Below the pieces are notes generated by a model, which did no database searches, was not told where the DNA came from, and worked only from the letters and a program-made list of their open reading frames with translations. Shown piece after piece: positions 7,252 to 10,612 of a DNA stretch of 11,493 nt. Location of the stretch: positions 1-11,493 of the forward strand of contig JAEOTX010000182.1 in NCBI GenBank assembly GCA_016839605.1. Reading direction: 5' to 3'. Position 1 is the stretch's first letter; the number at the start of each line of letters is the position of its first letter. The position numbers and the translations under genes were made by a program. The DNA comes from Candidatus Thorarchaeota archaeon (GTDB taxonomy: Archaea > Asgardarchaeota > Thorarchaeia > Thorarchaeales > Thorarchaeaceae).

Positions 7252-8280
7252 ATGGAAAATCTTGTTAGAGAGAATAAACAAATTGCTGCTACTGAATATC
7301 CAGACAATGATGACCTATTCAAACCTCTGAAAGCACATTTCGTTCGGTACAAAATGCTTTCTGGTCAAACTGCAAAGCGTCTTCAAAGAATTAGCAGTGG
7401 GTCTATTGTGAAACGGTTTGAACATACTCCATATCCTAGAGAGGCATCGGATATTATATGCCCACATTTCTTGGAGTTAAAGTGGGGTTATGGTTGTCCC
7501 TTTGATTGCGCATGGTGTTTTCTAAAAGGAACGCTCAGGATGTTACCTGAAAAAACTGCTCCAAAGGCAAAACCTAGAGTAAAAGTCCTAAGACATGTCA
7601 AATCAGCTCTTATACAGACCAAGAAACCGGAGATGTTCAATACAGGAGAGCTCTGTGATTCACTCATGGATGAAAGGAACAATGGCAGACCTTTCTCTCA
7701 ATGGATTGCTCAGGAATTCGAGAATCAGAAGAAACACAAAGTCCTCTTTCTCACTAAGTCATCCTATGTGACGAAACTATTAGAGATTGAAAACCATGAT
7801 CAAGCAGTTGCCAGTTTCAGTCTTAATGCATATCGAGTTTCTAGAAAATGGGAGAAAGCACCAACACCTAAAGCAAGAATTAAAGCTGGACAAAAGCTTG
7901 CTAATGCAAGATGGGAAGTACGAGTAAGAATAGACCCAATAGTGCCAATCTCTGACTGGAAGAAAGCTTATGCTGAACTAATCGATGACTTGTTCTCTAG
8001 TTACATGCCTTCTAGAGTTACGCTAGGAACTCCAAGAGGGCTCCAATCGACATTGAACAATGTGACAGATAGATCATGGACAGAGTATCTTGATTCTCAA
8101 CCATCAGGCTGGGGACGGAAAGTCGCTGATGAAGAACGAGAGGAAATCTATCGATTCTTGTTTGAGAAACTTGAAGAACATCTTTCTTTAAATCGGGTTG
8201 GACTGTGTAAGGAAACACTAGAAATGTTCAGAACCCTCGATCGAGATTTTCGAAAACAGGTCTGTAATTGCATGATGTGA
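7252..8280 (+). CDS. Radical SAM protein, spore photoproduct lyase (SPL)-like family
   Basis: GCPFDCAWCFL (CxxxCxxC), FNTGELCDSL, LFLTKS, SFSLNA, EKAPTPKARIKA and VRVRIDPI. Extra Cys in ICPHF, GLCKE and the terminal CNC. Confidence 0.85.
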   Translation: MENLVRENKQIAATEYPDNDDLFKPLKAHFVRYKMLSGQTAKRLQRISSGSIVKRFEHTPYPREASDIICPHFLELKWGYGCPFDCAWCFLKGTLRMLPEKTAPKAKPRVKVLRHVKSALIQTKKPEMFNTGELCDSLMDERNNGRPFSQWIAQEFENQKKHKVLFLTKSSYVTKLLEIENHDQAVASFSLNAYRVSRKWEKAPTPKARIKAGQKLANARWEVRVRIDPIVPISDWKKAYAELIDDLFSSYMPSRVTLGTPRGLQSTLNNVTDRSWTEYLDSQPSGWGRKVADEEREEIYRFLFEKLEEHLSLNRVGLCKETLEMFRTLDRDFRKQVCNCMM

Positions 8281-8383
8281 TTCATCTCAAAACCATTTGT
8301 TATGATCTTAGCGCTGATACATTCATATCAATAAAGAGTGAGACTTGAGATTAGTTTGACTTGAAGAAAAGAAGGCGAATGGT

Positions 8384-8902
8384 TTGAAGCAATGCATTGC
8401 CATCAGTGGAAGTCATGGAGCAGGAACAAGCACCACCGCGAGAATGATTGCTGAAGCATTGAAGCTACGATACGTATCAGCTGGAAACATCTTTCGGGAG
8501 TTCGCAGAAAAGCGTGGAATCGATATCTCCGAGTTTACAAAAATAGTCGAAAGCGACACCTCCATGAATGAGGAATTAGATAAGAGAATCCGCGAAGAAG
8601 CAAAGTCAGGAAACGTAATTATGGAGGGTAGAGTTGCATGTTGGACGGCAAGAGAGTTCGCTCATCTGCGAGTTATGTTGGATGCTCCCTTTGACATCAG
8701 AGTAGAAAGAATCTCAAAAAGGGCTGGCATGTCGATTTCAGAAGCAGAATCTGAAACATCTAAACGTGACAACGAGGAAAGAGAATGGTTCAGAAGGAAT
8801 CAGGGCATAGATATTGATGACATATCCATTTTCGACATTATCATCAACACAGAGAGATTATCGCCAACCAAAGTGTGTCGTATCATCCTCTCAGCAATAT
8901 GA
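8384..8902 (+). CDS. cmk: Archaeal-type cytidylate kinase family protein (probable accessory paralogue of cmk)
   Basis: IAISGSHGAGTSTTA P-loop, YVSAGNIFRE, VIMEGR, LDAPFDIRVERISKR and GIDIDDISIFDIIINTE match archaeal Cmk along the full length. TTG start. Confidence 0.85.
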   Translation: MKQCIAISGSHGAGTSTTARMIAEALKLRYVSAGNIFREFAEKRGIDISEFTKIVESDTSMNEELDKRIREEAKSGNVIMEGRVACWTAREFAHLRVMLDAPFDIRVERISKRAGMSISEAESETSKRDNEEREWFRRNQGIDIDDISIFDIIINTERLSPTKVCRIILSAI

Positions 8903-9004
8903 CGAAGTTTGGCGTTTATCTATGATATATTCGCTACTTCGAAGCCCCAAAAATCCATTAGACCATATTGAGTATACAGAAGTGCGCAAGATAGGTGGTC
9001 TTGG

Positions 9005-10612
9005 ATGGGACTTGAGTTCAAAGACAAGGCAATAGTCTTGAGTGGAGTTGCTGGAACTCGTCTAAAAACAAGTGTTCTTGGTAATTACTATTACTTCTGG
9101 CATAAGGTTCAATCGGGCGGAGAAGCAAGGTCCTATCGTTATTCCACATCAATTGTTGACCTCAATGCAGGCACTGGATTAATCTATATCGATGATGAGG
9201 ACGAAATCATTCGTGGCTCAGCTGGCCATGCACTCGACCTGAAATATGCGACACCTGATATTGGAACAAATAACCTCCGTCTATATCTCATTGAAAACGA
9301 CCTGCAATGTAGACTCTTCCTGATAGAGAATATGGAGGAGAAATGGGACCTCCATTTGACATCGCGCAGAGATTTAGATTACCCCCTTCTGACTAATGGA
9401 AGTGTCTGGCTTTTTGAATCTGAGGAGCATTTCTTGAGATTCACTGGAGGCGGAGCAATGATAGAGCGTGGGCTATTTCTCTTTGATCCACTACTCGCTC
9501 CTGAATATGGAATCATTGAGAGAGTTGCTCAACATCGACTTCGTGCGCCGTTTCAAATTCGTACTGAGTTTCTACTCTTCTTTTTTACATCTGACTGGAT
9601 ATCAGGTAGAACAGGATTCGCTCCCCTTCCTAGATCCACCAATGAAGCGATTTGGACAGAAGAAGAAAAAGCCACTGTAAATCAAGCTGACGATGTCTTT
9701 GGTGACCGTTCTTGGCTCACCATTACATCAAGTGGCCAAAATGATGGACATATTCAGAACGCACTTCTTAACGCTTATGTACTGAAGATGATGAAGTGGT
9801 TCAGGTTTGTTTTGCCTGTCCCATTTCAGCCTAGGACCGAACAGATGTACCATTTGCTATGCTGTTCTAACTATGAGGTAGGTATCAATGCCATCAAATC
9901 AAATTGGGCTCATTTGGTAAGCATGCACAAGGGAAATCTAATTCAGTCAGGCGTAACAGATCATGCTAACTCAGTTTATCCGGATTTCAAGAGATTGCAC
10001 CCAGAATTAATACGCTCATTACCAACTAGAATGCGAAGGCCCTTGGAATGGAAAATCCTGTGGCAAATAGCGAAGAGCTTTGTTGATGGTACTGCAGATT
10101 CTTTTGACAGGAGTCTCCTTAAGATTGTCCCAGATCAGTCGGAACTCGATACTATTCTGAAATGGCTTGCAGATGAGCATTACATCCTACAGGTTTCCAA
10201 TATTCCTTGGGCATGGGAGCTTCAAGAACCACTTTGTAGATATCGTGCGGCATACGATGTCTTGAGTGATAGACTGGGTCTTTCACCACTCATTCCAATG
10301 GAGCCATTAACCTCAGATACATTGGCTTTTCACAGGTGCAGTCAAGAAACAGACTTTCTTTCTTCTGATAGTCGGGGGAATCTTATCGAGATACGGATGA
10401 GATGCCCTCTCAGCAGATGTCGCAATGTTATAGCGACAAATGGCCCCATCAGAATCCCACCTACTGATACAATGTTCTTATCATGTCAGAATGTCGAATG
10501 CGGCTCCAACTATGAGATTAAGATGGTTGAATCAGAAACTGGAGATTTCTTGCTACGCTTGGAAGGCACTCCAATAGAGAAGCCGTTCTGGTATAGAGAA
10601 ACAGAGTATTAG
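9005..10612 (+). CDS. Three-Cys-motif partner (TcmP)-like SAM-dependent methyltransferase-fold protein with a putative wHTH region and a C-terminal Zn ribbon
   Basis: IVDLNAGTG (motif I, compare YIDLFAGPG), GSAGHAL, LYLIEND, FLFDP, TEFLLFF and YHLLCCSNYEVGINAIK occur in TcmP family order. C-terminal CPLSRC...CQNVEC. Confidence 0.65.
   Translation: MGLEFKDKAIVLSGVAGTRLKTSVLGNYYYFWHKVQSGGEARSYRYSTSIVDLNAGTGLIYIDDEDEIIRGSAGHALDLKYATPDIGTNNLRLYLIENDLQCRLFLIENMEEKWDLHLTSRRDLDYPLLTNGSVWLFESEEHFLRFTGGGAMIERGLFLFDPLLAPEYGIIERVAQHRLRAPFQIRTEFLLFFFTSDWISGRTGFAPLPRSTNEAIWTEEEKATVNQADDVFGDRSWLTITSSGQNDGHIQNALLNAYVLKMMKWFRFVLPVPFQPRTEQMYHLLCCSNYEVGINAIKSNWAHLVSMHKGNLIQSGVTDHANSVYPDFKRLHPELIRSLPTRMRRPLEWKILWQIAKSFVDGTADSFDRSLLKIVPDQSELDTILKWLADEHYILQVSNIPWAWELQEPLCRYRAAYDVLSDRLGLSPLIPMEPLTSDTLAFHRCSQETDFLSSDSRGNLIEIRMRCPLSRCRNVIATNGPIRIPPTDTMFLSCQNVECGSNYEIKMVESETGDFLLRLEGTPIEKPFWYRETEY

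What the first reader, a model, noticed from the sequence alone, without database searches (positions are those of the whole stretch)
7252..10612. SPL-like radical SAM + cytidylate kinase + TcmP-like methyltransferase: candidate uncharacterised nucleotide/DNA-modification defence operon
Seen: three co-oriented genes about 100 nt apart inside an att-bounded module. Established: TcmP-family proteins partner three-Cys/radical-SAM-like proteins and, to my knowledge, their function is unresolved. SPL-family enzymes do radical chemistry on pyrimidines in DNA. Viperins pair a radical SAM enzyme with a CMP kinase to make antiviral nucleotides. Inference: a dedicated Cmk paralogue points to a cytosine-derived nucleotide. 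Either a modified (d)CMP is made or salvaged for a DNA mark, or a viperin-analogous antiviral nucleotide is made by an unrelated radical SAM clade.
Basis: partly seen in the sequence, partly recalled or inferred. Interest (0 to 1): 0.75.

Follow-up and report, generated by a model that had tools for sequence, protein, structure and literature searches.

The report
Asgard radical-SAM, TcmP-like, pseudo-Cmk cassette
A small mobile three-gene cassette in an Asgard archaeon joins a DNA-repair-like radical enzyme, a methyltransferase-like DNA-binding protein and a cytidylate-kinase copy lacking its key catalytic lysine; it probably chemically alters or repairs cytosine-type bases in DNA, but nothing about it has been tested.

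Summary
Three co-oriented genes, 102-103 nt apart, lie between two copies of a tRNA 3'-end repeat.

- **Gene 1** is an SPL-clade radical SAM enzyme, not a true spore photoproduct lyase and not viperin-like.
- **Gene 2** is a second, non-housekeeping archaeal-type Cmk. The housekeeping cmk sits beside L34e/Cbf5 on another contig.
- **Gene 3** is a long, divergent TcmP-like class I methyltransferase fold (closest RlmJ/DUF519). Its tail is predicted as a winged helix plus a four-Cys zinc ribbon.

The trio recurs in at least five independent Asgard contigs in three gene orders, so the linkage is functional. It is rare: the TcmP-like gene is in 5 of 400 Asgard species genomes.

- Every trio-linked Cmk has Thr in place of the Walker-A lysine, so a CTP-supplying kinase is unlikely.
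- Only the rSAM clade with the long TcmP partner has Cys at the position aligning with SPL's H-donor Cys.

The wider rSAM family almost always pairs or fuses with bona fide TcmP (catalogued, untested PADLOC candidates PDC-M30/M41). These pairs sit next to R-M genes, lexA or recA-recX, and in a provirus.

Best reading: a DNA-directed, pyrimidine-targeting modification module (0.4). The main rival is lesion repair (0.3). This scan has already met the TcmP/SPL-like pair on other DNA; the pseudo-Cmk trio is the new variant.

The parts
7252..8280 (+). SPL-clade radical SAM enzyme (342 aa)
   Evidence: PF20903 SPL 48.9 bits; TIGR04070 57 bits, far below its 400-bit cut-off. AF2 model pLDDT 77. Best fold match is SPL 4fhc: Foldseek E 1.9e-9; VIA Z 16.1, rmsd 3.3 over 234 residues, next hit Z 11.4.
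7495..7518 (+). Radical SAM cluster motif C82-P-F-D-C86-A-W-C89
   Evidence: Read directly from the translation. The three Cys are invariant in 94 of 94 family members.
7654..7656 (+). Cys135 codon, aligned with SPL Cys140 (the H-atom donor)
   Evidence: The profile alignment to 4fhc places this column on SPL C140, with moderate posterior. Cys occurs only in the 7 rSAMs that have a long TcmP-like partner; the other 87 have Ala, Ser or Gly. Those 7 form one branch of the tree.
8384..8902 (+). Cmk-like paralogue (172 aa from TTG 8384; the database gene call starts at ATG 8444)
   Evidence: TIGR02173 154 bits, above cut-off. 41% identical to the housekeeping cmk of the same genome. The N-terminal 20 codons differ from L014 only by synonymous changes, so they are translated.
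8408..8431 (+). Degenerate Walker A: G9-S-H-G-A-G14-T15-S16 (Lys replaced by Thr)
   Evidence: Thr in 8 of 8 aligned paralogues down to 45% identity; Lys in 5 of 5 Asgard housekeeping Cmks. DGQ also becomes E81-G-R83 in the paralogues.
9005..10612 (+). Long TcmP-like protein (535 aa): class I SAM-methyltransferase fold, predicted winged helix, zinc ribbon
   Evidence: TIGR04474 40.9 bits, below the cut-off of 53. AF2 pLDDT 89.5. VIA top hits: RlmJ Z 14.6, DUF519 Z 13.6, Trm1 Z 13.5. Relatives at 36-40% identity are named TcmP by NCBI.
9158..9178 (+). SAM-binding motif I: D52-L-N-A-G-T-G58
   Evidence: Read from the translation. A55 and G58 are conserved in at least 90% of 32 homologues (A1). 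E97 (end of beta-2) and F160-D-P-L163 (motif IV position) are invariant.
10403..10501 (+). C-terminal four-Cys zinc-ribbon-like element (C467, C472, C494, C499)
   Evidence: Present only in the four closest homologues (P0002, P0124, P0125, P0126) in alignment A1. Modelled as beta-strands.
6287..6326 (-). tRNA 3'-end repeat, copy 2 (left boundary of the interval holding the trio)
10663..10702 (-). tRNA 3'-end repeat, copy 3 (right boundary, 51 nt after the TcmP-like stop)
   Evidence: The same junction is conserved in L014.
6432..6941 (+). 169-aa ORF sharing the repeat-bounded interval; probably a separate cargo, not part of the trio
   Evidence: Absent from the L014 cassette, where homology to the window starts at window 7077. 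No family hit. Contains R-C-N-L-F-H, an Rx4H HEPN-like motif. Only a weak HEPN lead in the protein atlas.

Best explanation
The trio is a mobile, three-component variant of the TcmP/radical-SAM gene pair, and it acts on a pyrimidine in DNA, probably cytosine.

**Proposed working (every step inferred):**
1. The long TcmP-like protein binds DNA through its predicted winged-helix and zinc-ribbon tail. It uses its SAM-binding Rossmann domain to present a target base, or to methylate it.
2. The SPL-like enzyme cleaves SAM on its C82/C86/C89 cluster. The 5'-deoxyadenosyl radical abstracts a hydrogen from the pyrimidine.
3. Cys135 serves as hydrogen donor or relay, as Cys140/141 does in SPL. The result is a covalently altered base.
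4. The Cmk-like protein keeps the cytidylate-binding residues but has lost the P-loop lysine. It therefore acts as a cytidine-nucleotide-recognising or regulatory subunit, or as an enzyme with altered chemistry. It is not a CTP-supplying kinase.

The product is most likely a protective or conflict-related DNA mark carried by a mobile cassette.

The general part of this reading (a nucleic-acid-directed TcmP/rSAM module, not nucleotide-pool metabolism) I put at about 0.75. The specific 'DNA modification used in genetic conflict' reading I put at 0.4.
For: **Linkage**
- The trio occurs in at least five independent loci in three arrangements:
  - rSAM>cmk>TcmP-like in the window, L014 and L015/16;
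  - <cmk TcmP-like> <rSAM in L017;
  - rSAM> <TcmP-like cmk> in L127.
- L125 and L126 also show the <TcmP-like cmk> pair, but the contig ends on the rSAM side.
- Every Lys-less Cmk whose context was fetched sits beside a long TcmP-like gene.
- In the wider family, nearly all of ~80 rSAM loci have an adjacent bona fide TcmP (TIGR04474, 96-207 bits). Others are a ~700-aa TcmP::rSAM fusion.

**DNA target**
- SPL, the only solved relative that stands out, acts on DNA.
- Cys135 aligns with SPL's catalytic Cys.
- The TcmP-like fold is closest to nucleic-acid methyltransferases such as RlmJ and Trm1, and carries a predicted winged helix and zinc ribbon.
- Some rSAM homologues carry a GMT-wHTH domain.

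**Conflict or mobile context**
- The cassette is bounded by tRNA-fragment repeats, here and precisely so in L014.
- The neighbouring cassette holds an MBL protein (PADLOC LmuA model 212 bits, Avs1a 135 bits) plus a caspase.
- The long TcmP-like gene is in 5 of 400 Asgard species genomes, and the rSAM family in 18 of 400.
- Related pairs sit behind type IIG or type I R-M genes, and beside an HK97-type capsid gene on IMG/VR contigs.
- Canonical partner TcmPs match the PADLOC candidate PDC-M30A at 142-210 bits.

**Not housekeeping**
- A second, higher-scoring cmk lies in the L34e-cmk-Cbf5 cluster.
- Genomes with the trio have two cmk genes, while G370, which has the pair but no module-linked cmk, has only one.
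Against: - No biochemical or genetic data exist for any TcmP/rSAM pair.
- The trio has no nuclease or other effector, so it is not a complete restriction-like system.
- The window's rSAM and TcmP-like proteins match no PADLOC model, even at E 1.
- Bacterial members sit next to lexA, recA-recX and RadC-N genes, which fits repair at least as well. SplB-like rSAM genes are reported SOS-regulon members (PMC8565304, PMC3765255).
- The closest solved folds of the TcmP-like protein methylate RNA, not DNA.
- Motif IV reads D-P-L-L, without the aromatic residue of amino-methyltransferases.
- The Cys135/SPL-Cys140 alignment has only moderate posterior, and the Cys marks a single clade.
- Cytosine specificity rests only on the Cmk ancestry of gene 2.
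Confidence: 0.4

Rival explanations
1. DNA repair module. The SPL-like enzyme directly reverses a pyrimidine lesion (an SP-like cross-link or another cytosine- or thymine-derived adduct) by radical chemistry, with Cys135 returning the hydrogen as in SPL. The TcmP-like protein finds or flips the lesion, and the Cmk-like protein recognises the damaged (d)CMP moiety.
For: - SPL is the only outstanding structural relative.
- Cys135 lies at SPL's H-donor position in exactly this clade.
- In bacteria the TcmP-rSAM pair lies directly downstream of a true lexA in four loci (L054, L057, L061, L091), with lexA directly upstream of the rSAM itself in L094. It lies inside recA-recX-[pair]-trmO-alaS in six loci, and beside RadC-N genes.
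- One Thorarchaeote locus has a UDG plus rSAM pair nearby.
- The literature lists SplB-like rSAM genes as SOS-regulated (PMC8565304, PMC3765255).
Against: - Distribution is very rare and patchy (5 of 400 Asgard genomes), and the cassette is mobile and repeat-bounded.
- Frequent adjacency to R-M genes and a provirus.
- SPL needs no methyltransferase-fold partner.
- SPL Tyr96/Tyr98 are Trp88/Phe90 here.
- The lexA and recA neighbours were each seen in only one or two bacterial lineages and may be inherited synteny or insertion hot spots.
Confidence: 0.3
2. Viperin-like antiviral nucleotide factory. The Cmk paralogue phosphorylates CMP toward CTP, and the rSAM converts a cytidine nucleotide into a chain terminator or other toxic analogue.
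For: - An rSAM gene sits next to a Cmk-family gene, as in pVip loci.
- The Cmk-like protein matches the kinase part of PADLOC pVip-kinase (E 3e-18) and VakA (E 2e-9).
- The conserved non-P-loop residues of the kinase fold are kept, including S32-A-G34, F37-R38, R106, R109, R113, E124-T125 and R128.
Against: - The Walker-A lysine is Thr in all eight paralogues aligned.
- The rSAM is SPL-clade; viperin is only a generic rSAM match (Z 10.5, rank 9), and no pVip model matches.
- The obligate partner is a DNA/RNA-methyltransferase-like protein with a predicted winged helix and zinc ribbon.
- None of the other ~80 sampled rSAM loci has a kinase gene beside the pair.
Confidence: 0.07
3. RNA modification module. 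The TcmP-like protein and rSAM modify a cytidine in tRNA or rRNA, of the host or of a mobile element.
For: The best fold matches of the TcmP-like protein are RlmJ (23S rRNA m6A2030), its DUF519 relatives, Trm1 and TYW4.
Against: - The fold matches are distant (12-14% identity; Z 13-15 against a background of class I methyltransferases at Z 10-13).
- Carriage is rare and mobile.
- Contexts are R-M, SOS and provirus.
- The rSAM's closest relative acts on DNA.
Confidence: 0.1

Closest known systems
TcmP / three-Cys-motif radical-SAM gene pair (NCBIfam TIGR04474 with DUF5131 'phage Gp37/Gp68' or SPL-like partners; PADLOC candidate systems PDC-M30 and PDC-M41, untested)
   Same: - A methyltransferase-fold TcmP-type protein is obligately adjacent to, or fused with, a CxxxCxxC radical-SAM protein.
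- The long TcmP-like subfamily of the window also pairs with DUF5131 in Bathyarchaeota.
- Carriage is mobile and patchy.
- SPL and DUF5131 are sister subgroups of RadicalSAM.org Megacluster-5 (PMC9477430).
   Different: - The window's TcmP-like protein scores below the TIGR04474 cut-off. It has large inserts and a four-Cys zinc-ribbon tail that only its four closest homologues share.
- Neither it nor the rSAM hits any PADLOC model.
- A third, conserved component (the Lys-less Cmk) is added.
- This rSAM clade carries Cys135.
Spore photoproduct lyase (SplB; TIGR04070; PDB 4FHC)
   Same: - Radical SAM TIM-barrel core with the CX3CX2C motif.
- Best and outstanding fold match (Z 16.1).
- A Cys aligned with the catalytic H-donor Cys140.
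   Different: - 15-19% identity, and 57 bits against a 400-bit cut-off.
- Tyr96/Tyr98 are replaced by Trp88/Phe90.
- Four further invariant Cys: C70, C319, C338 and C340.
- It always has a TcmP-type partner.
- The host is an archaeon, not a spore former.
Archaeal (d)CMP kinase (TIGR02173)
   Same: Full-length match above the curated cut-off. The S-A-G-x-x-F-R, lid Arg and E-T-x-x-R motifs are kept.
   Different: - Walker-A Lys becomes Thr, and DGQ becomes EGR, throughout the clade.
- It is not in the L34e-cmk cluster.
- It is a second copy, present only in genomes that carry the trio.
Prokaryotic viperin (pVip) with associated nucleotide kinase
   Same: An rSAM gene lies next to a Cmk-family gene in a mobile, defence-like context.
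   Different: The rSAM belongs to a different clade (SPL-like). The kinase lacks its P-loop lysine. A methyltransferase-fold partner with predicted nucleic-acid-binding domains is obligatory.
Phage thymidine hypermodification clusters (5-hmdU DNA kinase + rSAM isomerase; PMC8989533)
   Same: A P-loop-kinase-family protein and a radical SAM enzyme act together on a pyrimidine within DNA. This is a precedent for rSAM-installed DNA modifications.
   Different: No sequence relationship was tested or seen. Those kinases are active and belong to another P-loop subfamily. The trio has no aGPT-Pplase or PLP enzymes.

Membership tests
Spore photoproduct lyase (TIGR04070 / TIGR03886 equivalogs) | Score above the curated equivalog cut-off (400 / 437 bits) | tested here: not met
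   57.3 and 24.7 bits.
Spore photoproduct lyase | Radical SAM CX3CX2C cluster motif | tested here: met
   C82, C86 and C89 are invariant in 94 of 94 relatives.
Spore photoproduct lyase | Catalytic H-donor Cys (Gt C140 / Bs C141) | tested here: inconclusive
   Cys135 falls in the same profile column as SPL C140, but the posterior is only moderate. It is present only in the clade with a long TcmP-like partner.
Spore photoproduct lyase | Radical-relay tyrosines flanking the third cluster Cys (Gt Y96, Y98) | tested here: not met
   Trp88 and Phe90 in the window. Most of the wider family has Trp and Tyr.
Spore photoproduct lyase | SPL fold | tested here: met
   4fhc is the top hit by Foldseek (E 1.9e-9, TM 0.48) and by VIA (Z 16.1; next hit 11.4).
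TcmP (TIGR04474) | Score above the curated cut-off (53 bits) | tested here: not met
   40.9 bits; 42.4 bits in the genome search. Homologues at 36-40% identity are named TcmP by NCBI.
TcmP (TIGR04474) | Adjacent to a three-Cys-motif / radical-SAM partner | tested here: met
   An SPL-like rSAM lies in the same cassette. The subfamily also pairs with DUF5131.
TcmP (TIGR04474) | Shared motifs: N-terminal K..L..Y..W helix, DxxAGxG, GS(P/A)xxA, acidic beta-2 end, F-x-D-P | tested here: met
   Alignment with bona fide TcmPs; invariant columns.
Archaeal (d)CMP kinase (TIGR02173) | Score above the curated cut-off (102 bits) | tested here: met
   154.3 bits.
Archaeal (d)CMP kinase (TIGR02173) | Walker A GxxxxGK[ST] with the catalytic lysine | tested here: not met
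   G9-S-H-G-A-G-T15-S. Thr in 8 of 8 aligned paralogues; Lys in 5 of 5 housekeeping copies.
Archaeal (d)CMP kinase (TIGR02173) | Kinase activity on CMP/dCMP | not testable with these tools
   Needs an enzyme assay.
pVip (viperin) + kinase defence system | Viperin-family rSAM | tested here: not met
   No PADLOC pVip model matches the rSAM at E up to 1. Viperin 5vsl is only rank 9, Z 10.5.
PADLOC candidates PDC-M30 / PDC-M41 | Component A (TcmP) and component B (DUF5131) HMM matches | tested here: not met
   No hits for the window's two proteins. Canonical TcmP partners of the same rSAM family do match M30A (142-210 bits), and DUF5131 partners match M41B/M30B.
Anti-phage defence system (any) | Protection against phage or virus | not testable with these tools
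Only context evidence is available.

The most novel reading that the evidence does not exclude
The TcmP/SPL-like pair is a radical-based analogue of restriction-modification or of base hypermodification. The methyltransferase-fold subunit marks or selects DNA. The radical SAM subunit makes, or undoes, a carbon-carbon or other covalent change at a pyrimidine C5/C6. This would be chemistry not yet known for cellular DNA. In the Asgard trio, a cytidylate kinase has been converted into a non-kinase 'reader' that confers cytosine specificity.
Probability: 0.2. Interest if true: 0.85.

Novelty: new variant of a known kind. Interest (0 to 1): 0.6.

Why it matters
Radical SAM enzymes known to act on DNA are very few: SPL, and one phage thymidine-hypermodification isomerase (PMC8989533).

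The TcmP/rSAM pair is widespread in uncultured anaerobes, archaea and their viruses. It is catalogued only as a name and as an untested defence candidate.

The Asgard trio adds two concrete handles for biochemistry:
- a clade-specific Cys at SPL's H-donor position;
- a cytidylate-kinase-derived protein that has lost its catalytic lysine yet is conserved and tightly linked.

Together these point to a cytosine-type substrate. They give testable mutants: C135A, T15K, D52A and D161A.

Solving this could reveal a new DNA modification or repair reaction. It could also give an example of a housekeeping kinase recruited as a specificity subunit.

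Tried and rejected
- **Complex prediction.** Complex prediction with the TcmP-like protein (residues 1-450), the rSAM and the Cmk-like protein as partner gave no verdict (score 0.00). This is not evidence either way.
- **Expression.** The look-up of sequencing runs listed no RNA holder.
- **Population data.** Read laying used only Logan contigs from one marine-sediment study.
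  - No contig joins across a cassette, so there is no direct evidence of excision.
  - A single 187-nt 'skip' at 7436-7624 has a 23-nt side and was ignored.
- **Phage records.** blastn of the cassette against 50,697 phage records found no match.
- **Viral fold library.** BFVD fold search of the TcmP-like model gave only generic class I methyltransferases.
- **Rfam and ARAGORN.** Rfam at E up to 1 gave nothing credible. ARAGORN found no intact tRNA in the window.
- **Promoter/terminator scan.** The sigma-70-type scan gave counts at shuffle level and is not relevant to an archaeon.
- **Spacers.** The three upstream spacers share no motif.
- **Literature.** Searches for TcmP, three-Cys-motif, DUF5131, GMT-wHTH and DUF488 found no functional study.
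- **Housekeeping nucleotide metabolism.** Rejected. The housekeeping cmk is elsewhere, and the trio is in about 1% of Asgard genomes.
- **mtnA/MTAP neighbours in Dehalococcoidia as a functional link.** I treat this as an insertion site within one lineage, not as evidence of function.
- **Failed scripts.** One script for a genome-wide tRNA scan was killed by the sandbox and one call returned no answer. The genome search replaced them.

Full report
**1. What is in the sequence**

The window is a whole 11,493-bp contig (C120) of an 80%-complete, 3.08-Mb Asgard MAG. Its closest relatives are Thorarchaeota MAGs.

Three + strand ORFs lie at 7252-8280, 8384-8902 and 9005-10612, with spacers of 103 and 102 nt. 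No tRNA or credible Rfam element is present.

Three direct copies of a tRNA 3'-end fragment (T-arm, acceptor 3' strand and CCA, on the minus strand) lie at 4123-4162, 6287-6326 and 10663-10702.
- Copies 1-2 bracket an MBL gene (PADLOC LmuA 212 bits, Avs1a 135 bits) and a caspase gene.
- Copies 2-3 bracket a 169-aa ORF plus the trio.

In the related MAG HM6_B34 (L014), the trio region is 83% identical in DNA (window 7077-10610 matches L014 3421-6953). There it is flanked tightly by the same repeat at 3395-3423 and 6963-7003, with a third copy at 1353-1381 and different neighbouring cargo.

So the trio is a discrete cassette in a repeat-punctuated array. The 169-aa ORF is probably separate cargo.

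**2. Gene 1, the radical SAM enzyme**

- It matches Pfam SPL (48.9 bits) but falls far below the SPL equivalog cut-offs (57 against 400 bits).
- The motif C82-x3-C86-x2-C89 is present and invariant in the family.
- An AF2 model (pLDDT 77) has SPL 4fhc as its clear best match. Foldseek gives E 1.9e-9. VIA gives Z 16.1 over 234 residues, against 11.4 for the next hit. Viperin is rank 9 at Z 10.5.
- In a profile alignment to 4fhc, SPL's cluster Cys residues align with C82/C86/C89. SPL Tyr96/Tyr98 align with Trp88/Phe90. SPL's H-donor Cys140 aligns with Cys135, with moderate posterior.
- Four further Cys (C70, C319, C338, C340) are invariant in the family and have no SPL counterpart that I know of.

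**3. Gene 3, the TcmP-like protein**

- It scores 40.9 bits on TIGR04474 (cut-off 53) and has no Pfam hit.
- Homologues at 36-40% identity, from Lokiarchaeota, Bathyarchaeota and 'Promethearchaeati', are named TcmP by NCBI.
- The AF2 model is confident (pLDDT 89.5, pTM 0.86).
- The N-terminal ~300 residues form a class I SAM-methyltransferase fold. The closest solved structures are RlmJ (Z 14.6), a DUF519 protein (13.6) and Trm1 (13.5). These are distant matches, above a dense background of methyltransferases at Z 10-13.
- Motif I (D52-L-N-A-G-T-G58), the acidic residue ending beta-2 (E97) and a motif-IV-position F160-D-P-L163 are conserved. So is a family-specific G71-S-A-G-H75.
- Aligned with bona fide TcmPs, it shares their motif skeleton but carries inserts.
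- Residues ~340-430 are modelled as helices and short strands, which I read as a winged-helix-like domain.
- The last ~80 residues hold a CX4C...CX4C element (C467, C472, C494, C499). Only the four closest homologues have it.

**4. Gene 2, the Cmk-like protein**

It passes the archaeal (d)CMP kinase model (154 against 102 bits).

The genome holds a second, better-scoring cmk (174 bits) at C46:5099-5605. That copy lies between L34e and a small ORF followed by Cbf5/TruB, the canonical archaeal position. The two are 41% identical.

The key new point is the Walker A motif, which reads G9-S-H-G-A-G14-T15-S16. The catalytic lysine is Thr.
- This holds in all eight paralogues aligned, down to 45% identity: P0158, P0160-P0164, L017 and the window. 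P0165, not in the alignment, shows it too.
- All five Asgard housekeeping Cmks have G-K-S.
- The paralogues also change D-G-Q to E81-G-R83.
- They keep S32-A-G34, F37-R38, R106, R109, R113, E124-T125 and R128.

Between the window and L014, the five codon differences in the first 20 codons are all synonymous, including the Thr15 codon. So this segment is translated and under selection. This holds even though the database gene call for this contig starts at Met21.

From general knowledge of P-loop NMP kinases, loss of this lysine cripples phosphoryl transfer. I therefore read the protein as a cytidine-nucleotide-binding subunit, or an enzyme with altered chemistry, not as a standard kinase. This is inference; activity was not testable.

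**5. Recurrence**

The trio occurs in three arrangements:
- rSAM>cmk>TcmP-like in the window, L014 (91% and 79% protein identity for the rSAM and the TcmP-like protein) and L015/L016 (TcmP-like protein 62% identical);
- <cmk TcmP-like> <rSAM in a Lokiarchaeota-labelled contig (L017, 40%);
- rSAM> <TcmP-like cmk> in L127.

L125 and L126 show the <TcmP-like cmk> part but are cut at the contig end on the rSAM side.

Every Lys-less Cmk whose context was fetched is next to a long TcmP-like gene. Only ten proteins of this Cmk clade were found among 5.8 billion.

The rSAM plus long TcmP-like pair also occurs without cmk (L005-7 and L008-10).

Genomes with the trio have two cmk genes. G370, which has the pair but no module-linked cmk, has only one.

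Among 400 Asgard species genomes, the long TcmP-like gene is in 5 and the rSAM family in 18. In the window's own genus it is in 1 of 16 other genomes.

**6. The wider family**

A scan of 185,579 species genomes gave 146 loci, of which 80 were fetched. Four more came from IMG/VR. They come from Dehalococcoidia, Zixibacteria, Ignavibacteria, Bathyarchaeota and many other uncultured lineages, at ~50% identity.

My ORF clustering shows the following:
- Nearly every rSAM has an adjacent partner, usually upstream and co-oriented. The partner is a bona fide TcmP (TIGR04474, 96-207 bits). Alternatively the rSAM is fused to it in a ~700-aa protein.
- Some homologues carry a GMT-wHTH domain.

On a quick ML tree, the seven rSAMs with a long TcmP-like partner form one branch, sister to the other 81 (SH-aLRT 93; label test 100). 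They are exactly the seven with Cys at position 135. The rest have Ala (79), Ser (7) or Gly (1).

The long TcmP-like subfamily also pairs with DUF5131 (Gp37/Gp68) rSAM-like proteins in Bathyarchaeota. RadicalSAM.org places DUF5131 and SPL in the same Megacluster-5 (PMC9477430).

Canonical partner TcmPs match PADLOC candidate PDC-M30A (142-210 bits) and M41A. DUF5131 partners match M41B/M30B. The window's own two proteins match nothing in PADLOC.

**7. Contexts of the wider pair**

- A true lexA lies directly upstream of the TcmP-rSAM pair in four Dehalococcoidia loci (L054, L057, L061, L091), and directly upstream of the rSAM itself in L094.
- recA-recX-[pair]-trmO-alaS in six Ignavibacteria/Zixibacteria-type loci.
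- A RadC-N gene and/or a type IIG N6-methylase/Eco57I-like gene upstream in about ten loci.
- mtnA-[pair]-MTA phosphorylase in about ten Dehalococcoidia loci.
- HATPase_c_3 (MORC-like), PP_RS20740 and another rSAM-like gene in three lineages.
- ParB upstream and type IIG downstream on one viral contig.
- Type I R-M on one side and an HK97-type capsid gene on the other on Bathyarchaeota provirus-like contigs, which also carry a second rSAM paralogue.

The literature lists SplB-like rSAM genes and radC as SOS-regulon members in several phyla (PMC8565304, PMC3765255).

These contexts all point to DNA. They split between 'conflict' (R-M, virus, mobile cassette) and 'damage response' (lexA, recA).

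**8. Population hint**

In Logan contigs of four marine-sediment runs from one study, cassette pieces sit at ~3-7x. The contigs that carry the chromosome flank ending exactly at repeat copy 1 (window 4000-4162, 0 mismatches) are at 46-71x. Other contigs continue past the repeat as what looks like the rest of a tRNA.

This fits the cassettes being present in only part of the population. Contig depths and a 163-nt overlap cannot prove it, and no excision joint was seen.

**9. Interpretation**

*Shown:*
- the three families and their deviations;
- a separate housekeeping cmk;
- conserved three-way linkage through rearrangements;
- cassette boundaries;
- rarity;
- the universal TcmP partnership and fusions of this rSAM family.

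*Inferred:*
- The substrate is a nucleic acid, most likely DNA. This rests on SPL kinship, the predicted winged helix and zinc ribbon, and the R-M, SOS and virus contexts.
- A cytosine-type base is involved. This rests on the Cmk ancestry of a protein that keeps its NMP-site residues but not its ATP-site lysine.
- Cys135 takes part in radical chemistry, by analogy with SPL.

I rank the readings as follows:

| Reading | Confidence |
|---|---|
| DNA modification carried by a mobile or conflict element | 0.4 |
| Direct lesion repair | 0.3 |
| RNA modification | 0.1 |
| Viperin-like nucleotide synthesis | 0.07 |
| Something else | remainder |

**10. Novelty**

The TcmP/three-Cys-motif pair is catalogued (NCBIfam; PADLOC candidates) but has no tested function. 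Earlier follow-ups in this scan met the TcmP/SPL-like pair on other genomes.

What is new here is the three-component Asgard variant:
- a divergent long TcmP-like protein;
- a Cys135-bearing SPL-like clade;
- a conserved Lys-less Cmk paralogue.

I rate it a new variant of a known, though uncharacterised, kind.

Noticed in passing
window 4123-4162, 6287-6326, 10663-10702; L014 1353-1381, 3395-3423, 6963-7003: An array of cargo cassettes is separated by the same ~30-nt tRNA 3'-end fragment in two related Thorarchaeota. The cargo differs, no integrase is in view, and no intact tRNA with this 3' end was found in the 80%-complete assembly.
   Followed up: partly
window 4187-5257 (-) and 5501-6262 (+): A divergent gene pair fills the neighbouring cassette. 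One is an MBL-fold protein (PADLOC LmuA 212 bits, Avs1a 135 bits; NCBIfam Avs1a 184 bits, below cut-off). The other is a Peptidase_C14 caspase.
   Followed up: no
window 6432-6941 (+): A 169-aa ORF with no family hit carries R-C-N-L-F-H, an Rx4H motif as in HEPN RNases. The protein atlas gives only a weak HEPN_RiboL-PSP lead. The ORF is absent from the L014 version of the cassette.
   Followed up: partly
window 8384 vs 8444: The public gene call for the Cmk-like gene starts at Met21 (152 aa) and so omits the degenerate P-loop. Synonymous-only differences from L014 in codons 1-20 indicate the longer TTG-initiated form is real.
   Followed up: yes
window 915-4106 (+), repeats at 3906-3985: A 1063-aa parallel beta-helix/NosD-like protein has a Thr-rich tandem repeat (ACTACAAC-type) near its C-terminus. 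It is probably a surface protein.
   Followed up: no
L098-L100 (IMG/VR) and L038, L093, L096 (Bathyarchaeota): An SPL-like rSAM, a second divergent SPL-like paralogue (Tyr/Tyr/Ser at the three diagnostic sites) and a convergent TcmP lie between a type I R-M system and an HK97-type capsid gene. This looks like a provirus-borne version of the pair.
   Followed up: partly
L117 2108-8126: A long TcmP-like gene plus a DUF5131-type rSAM follow a QueC-like gene, a DuOB gene and two DUF488 genes. This may be a larger DNA-modification cluster.
   Followed up: no
L011-L013, L030, L081: In a Methanomassiliicoccales locus (L011-L013) and two bacterial loci (L030, L081), the rSAM travels with a HATPase_c_3 (MORC-like) protein. 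L011-L013 and L081 also carry a PP_RS20740-family protein and a 404-aa rSAM-like protein.
   Followed up: no
L008 10153-11802: A UDG-family gene plus another radical SAM gene (the known UDG-linked rSAM pair) lies 3.4 kb from the TcmP-like/rSAM pair in a Thorarchaeote of the window's genus.
   Followed up: no
window 4000-4162 vs 4700-10500 in runs X1-X4: Contigs carrying the chromosomal flank are at 46-71x, while cassette contigs are at 3-7x in the same marine-sediment metagenomes. This hints that the cassette array is a minority variant.
   Followed up: partly
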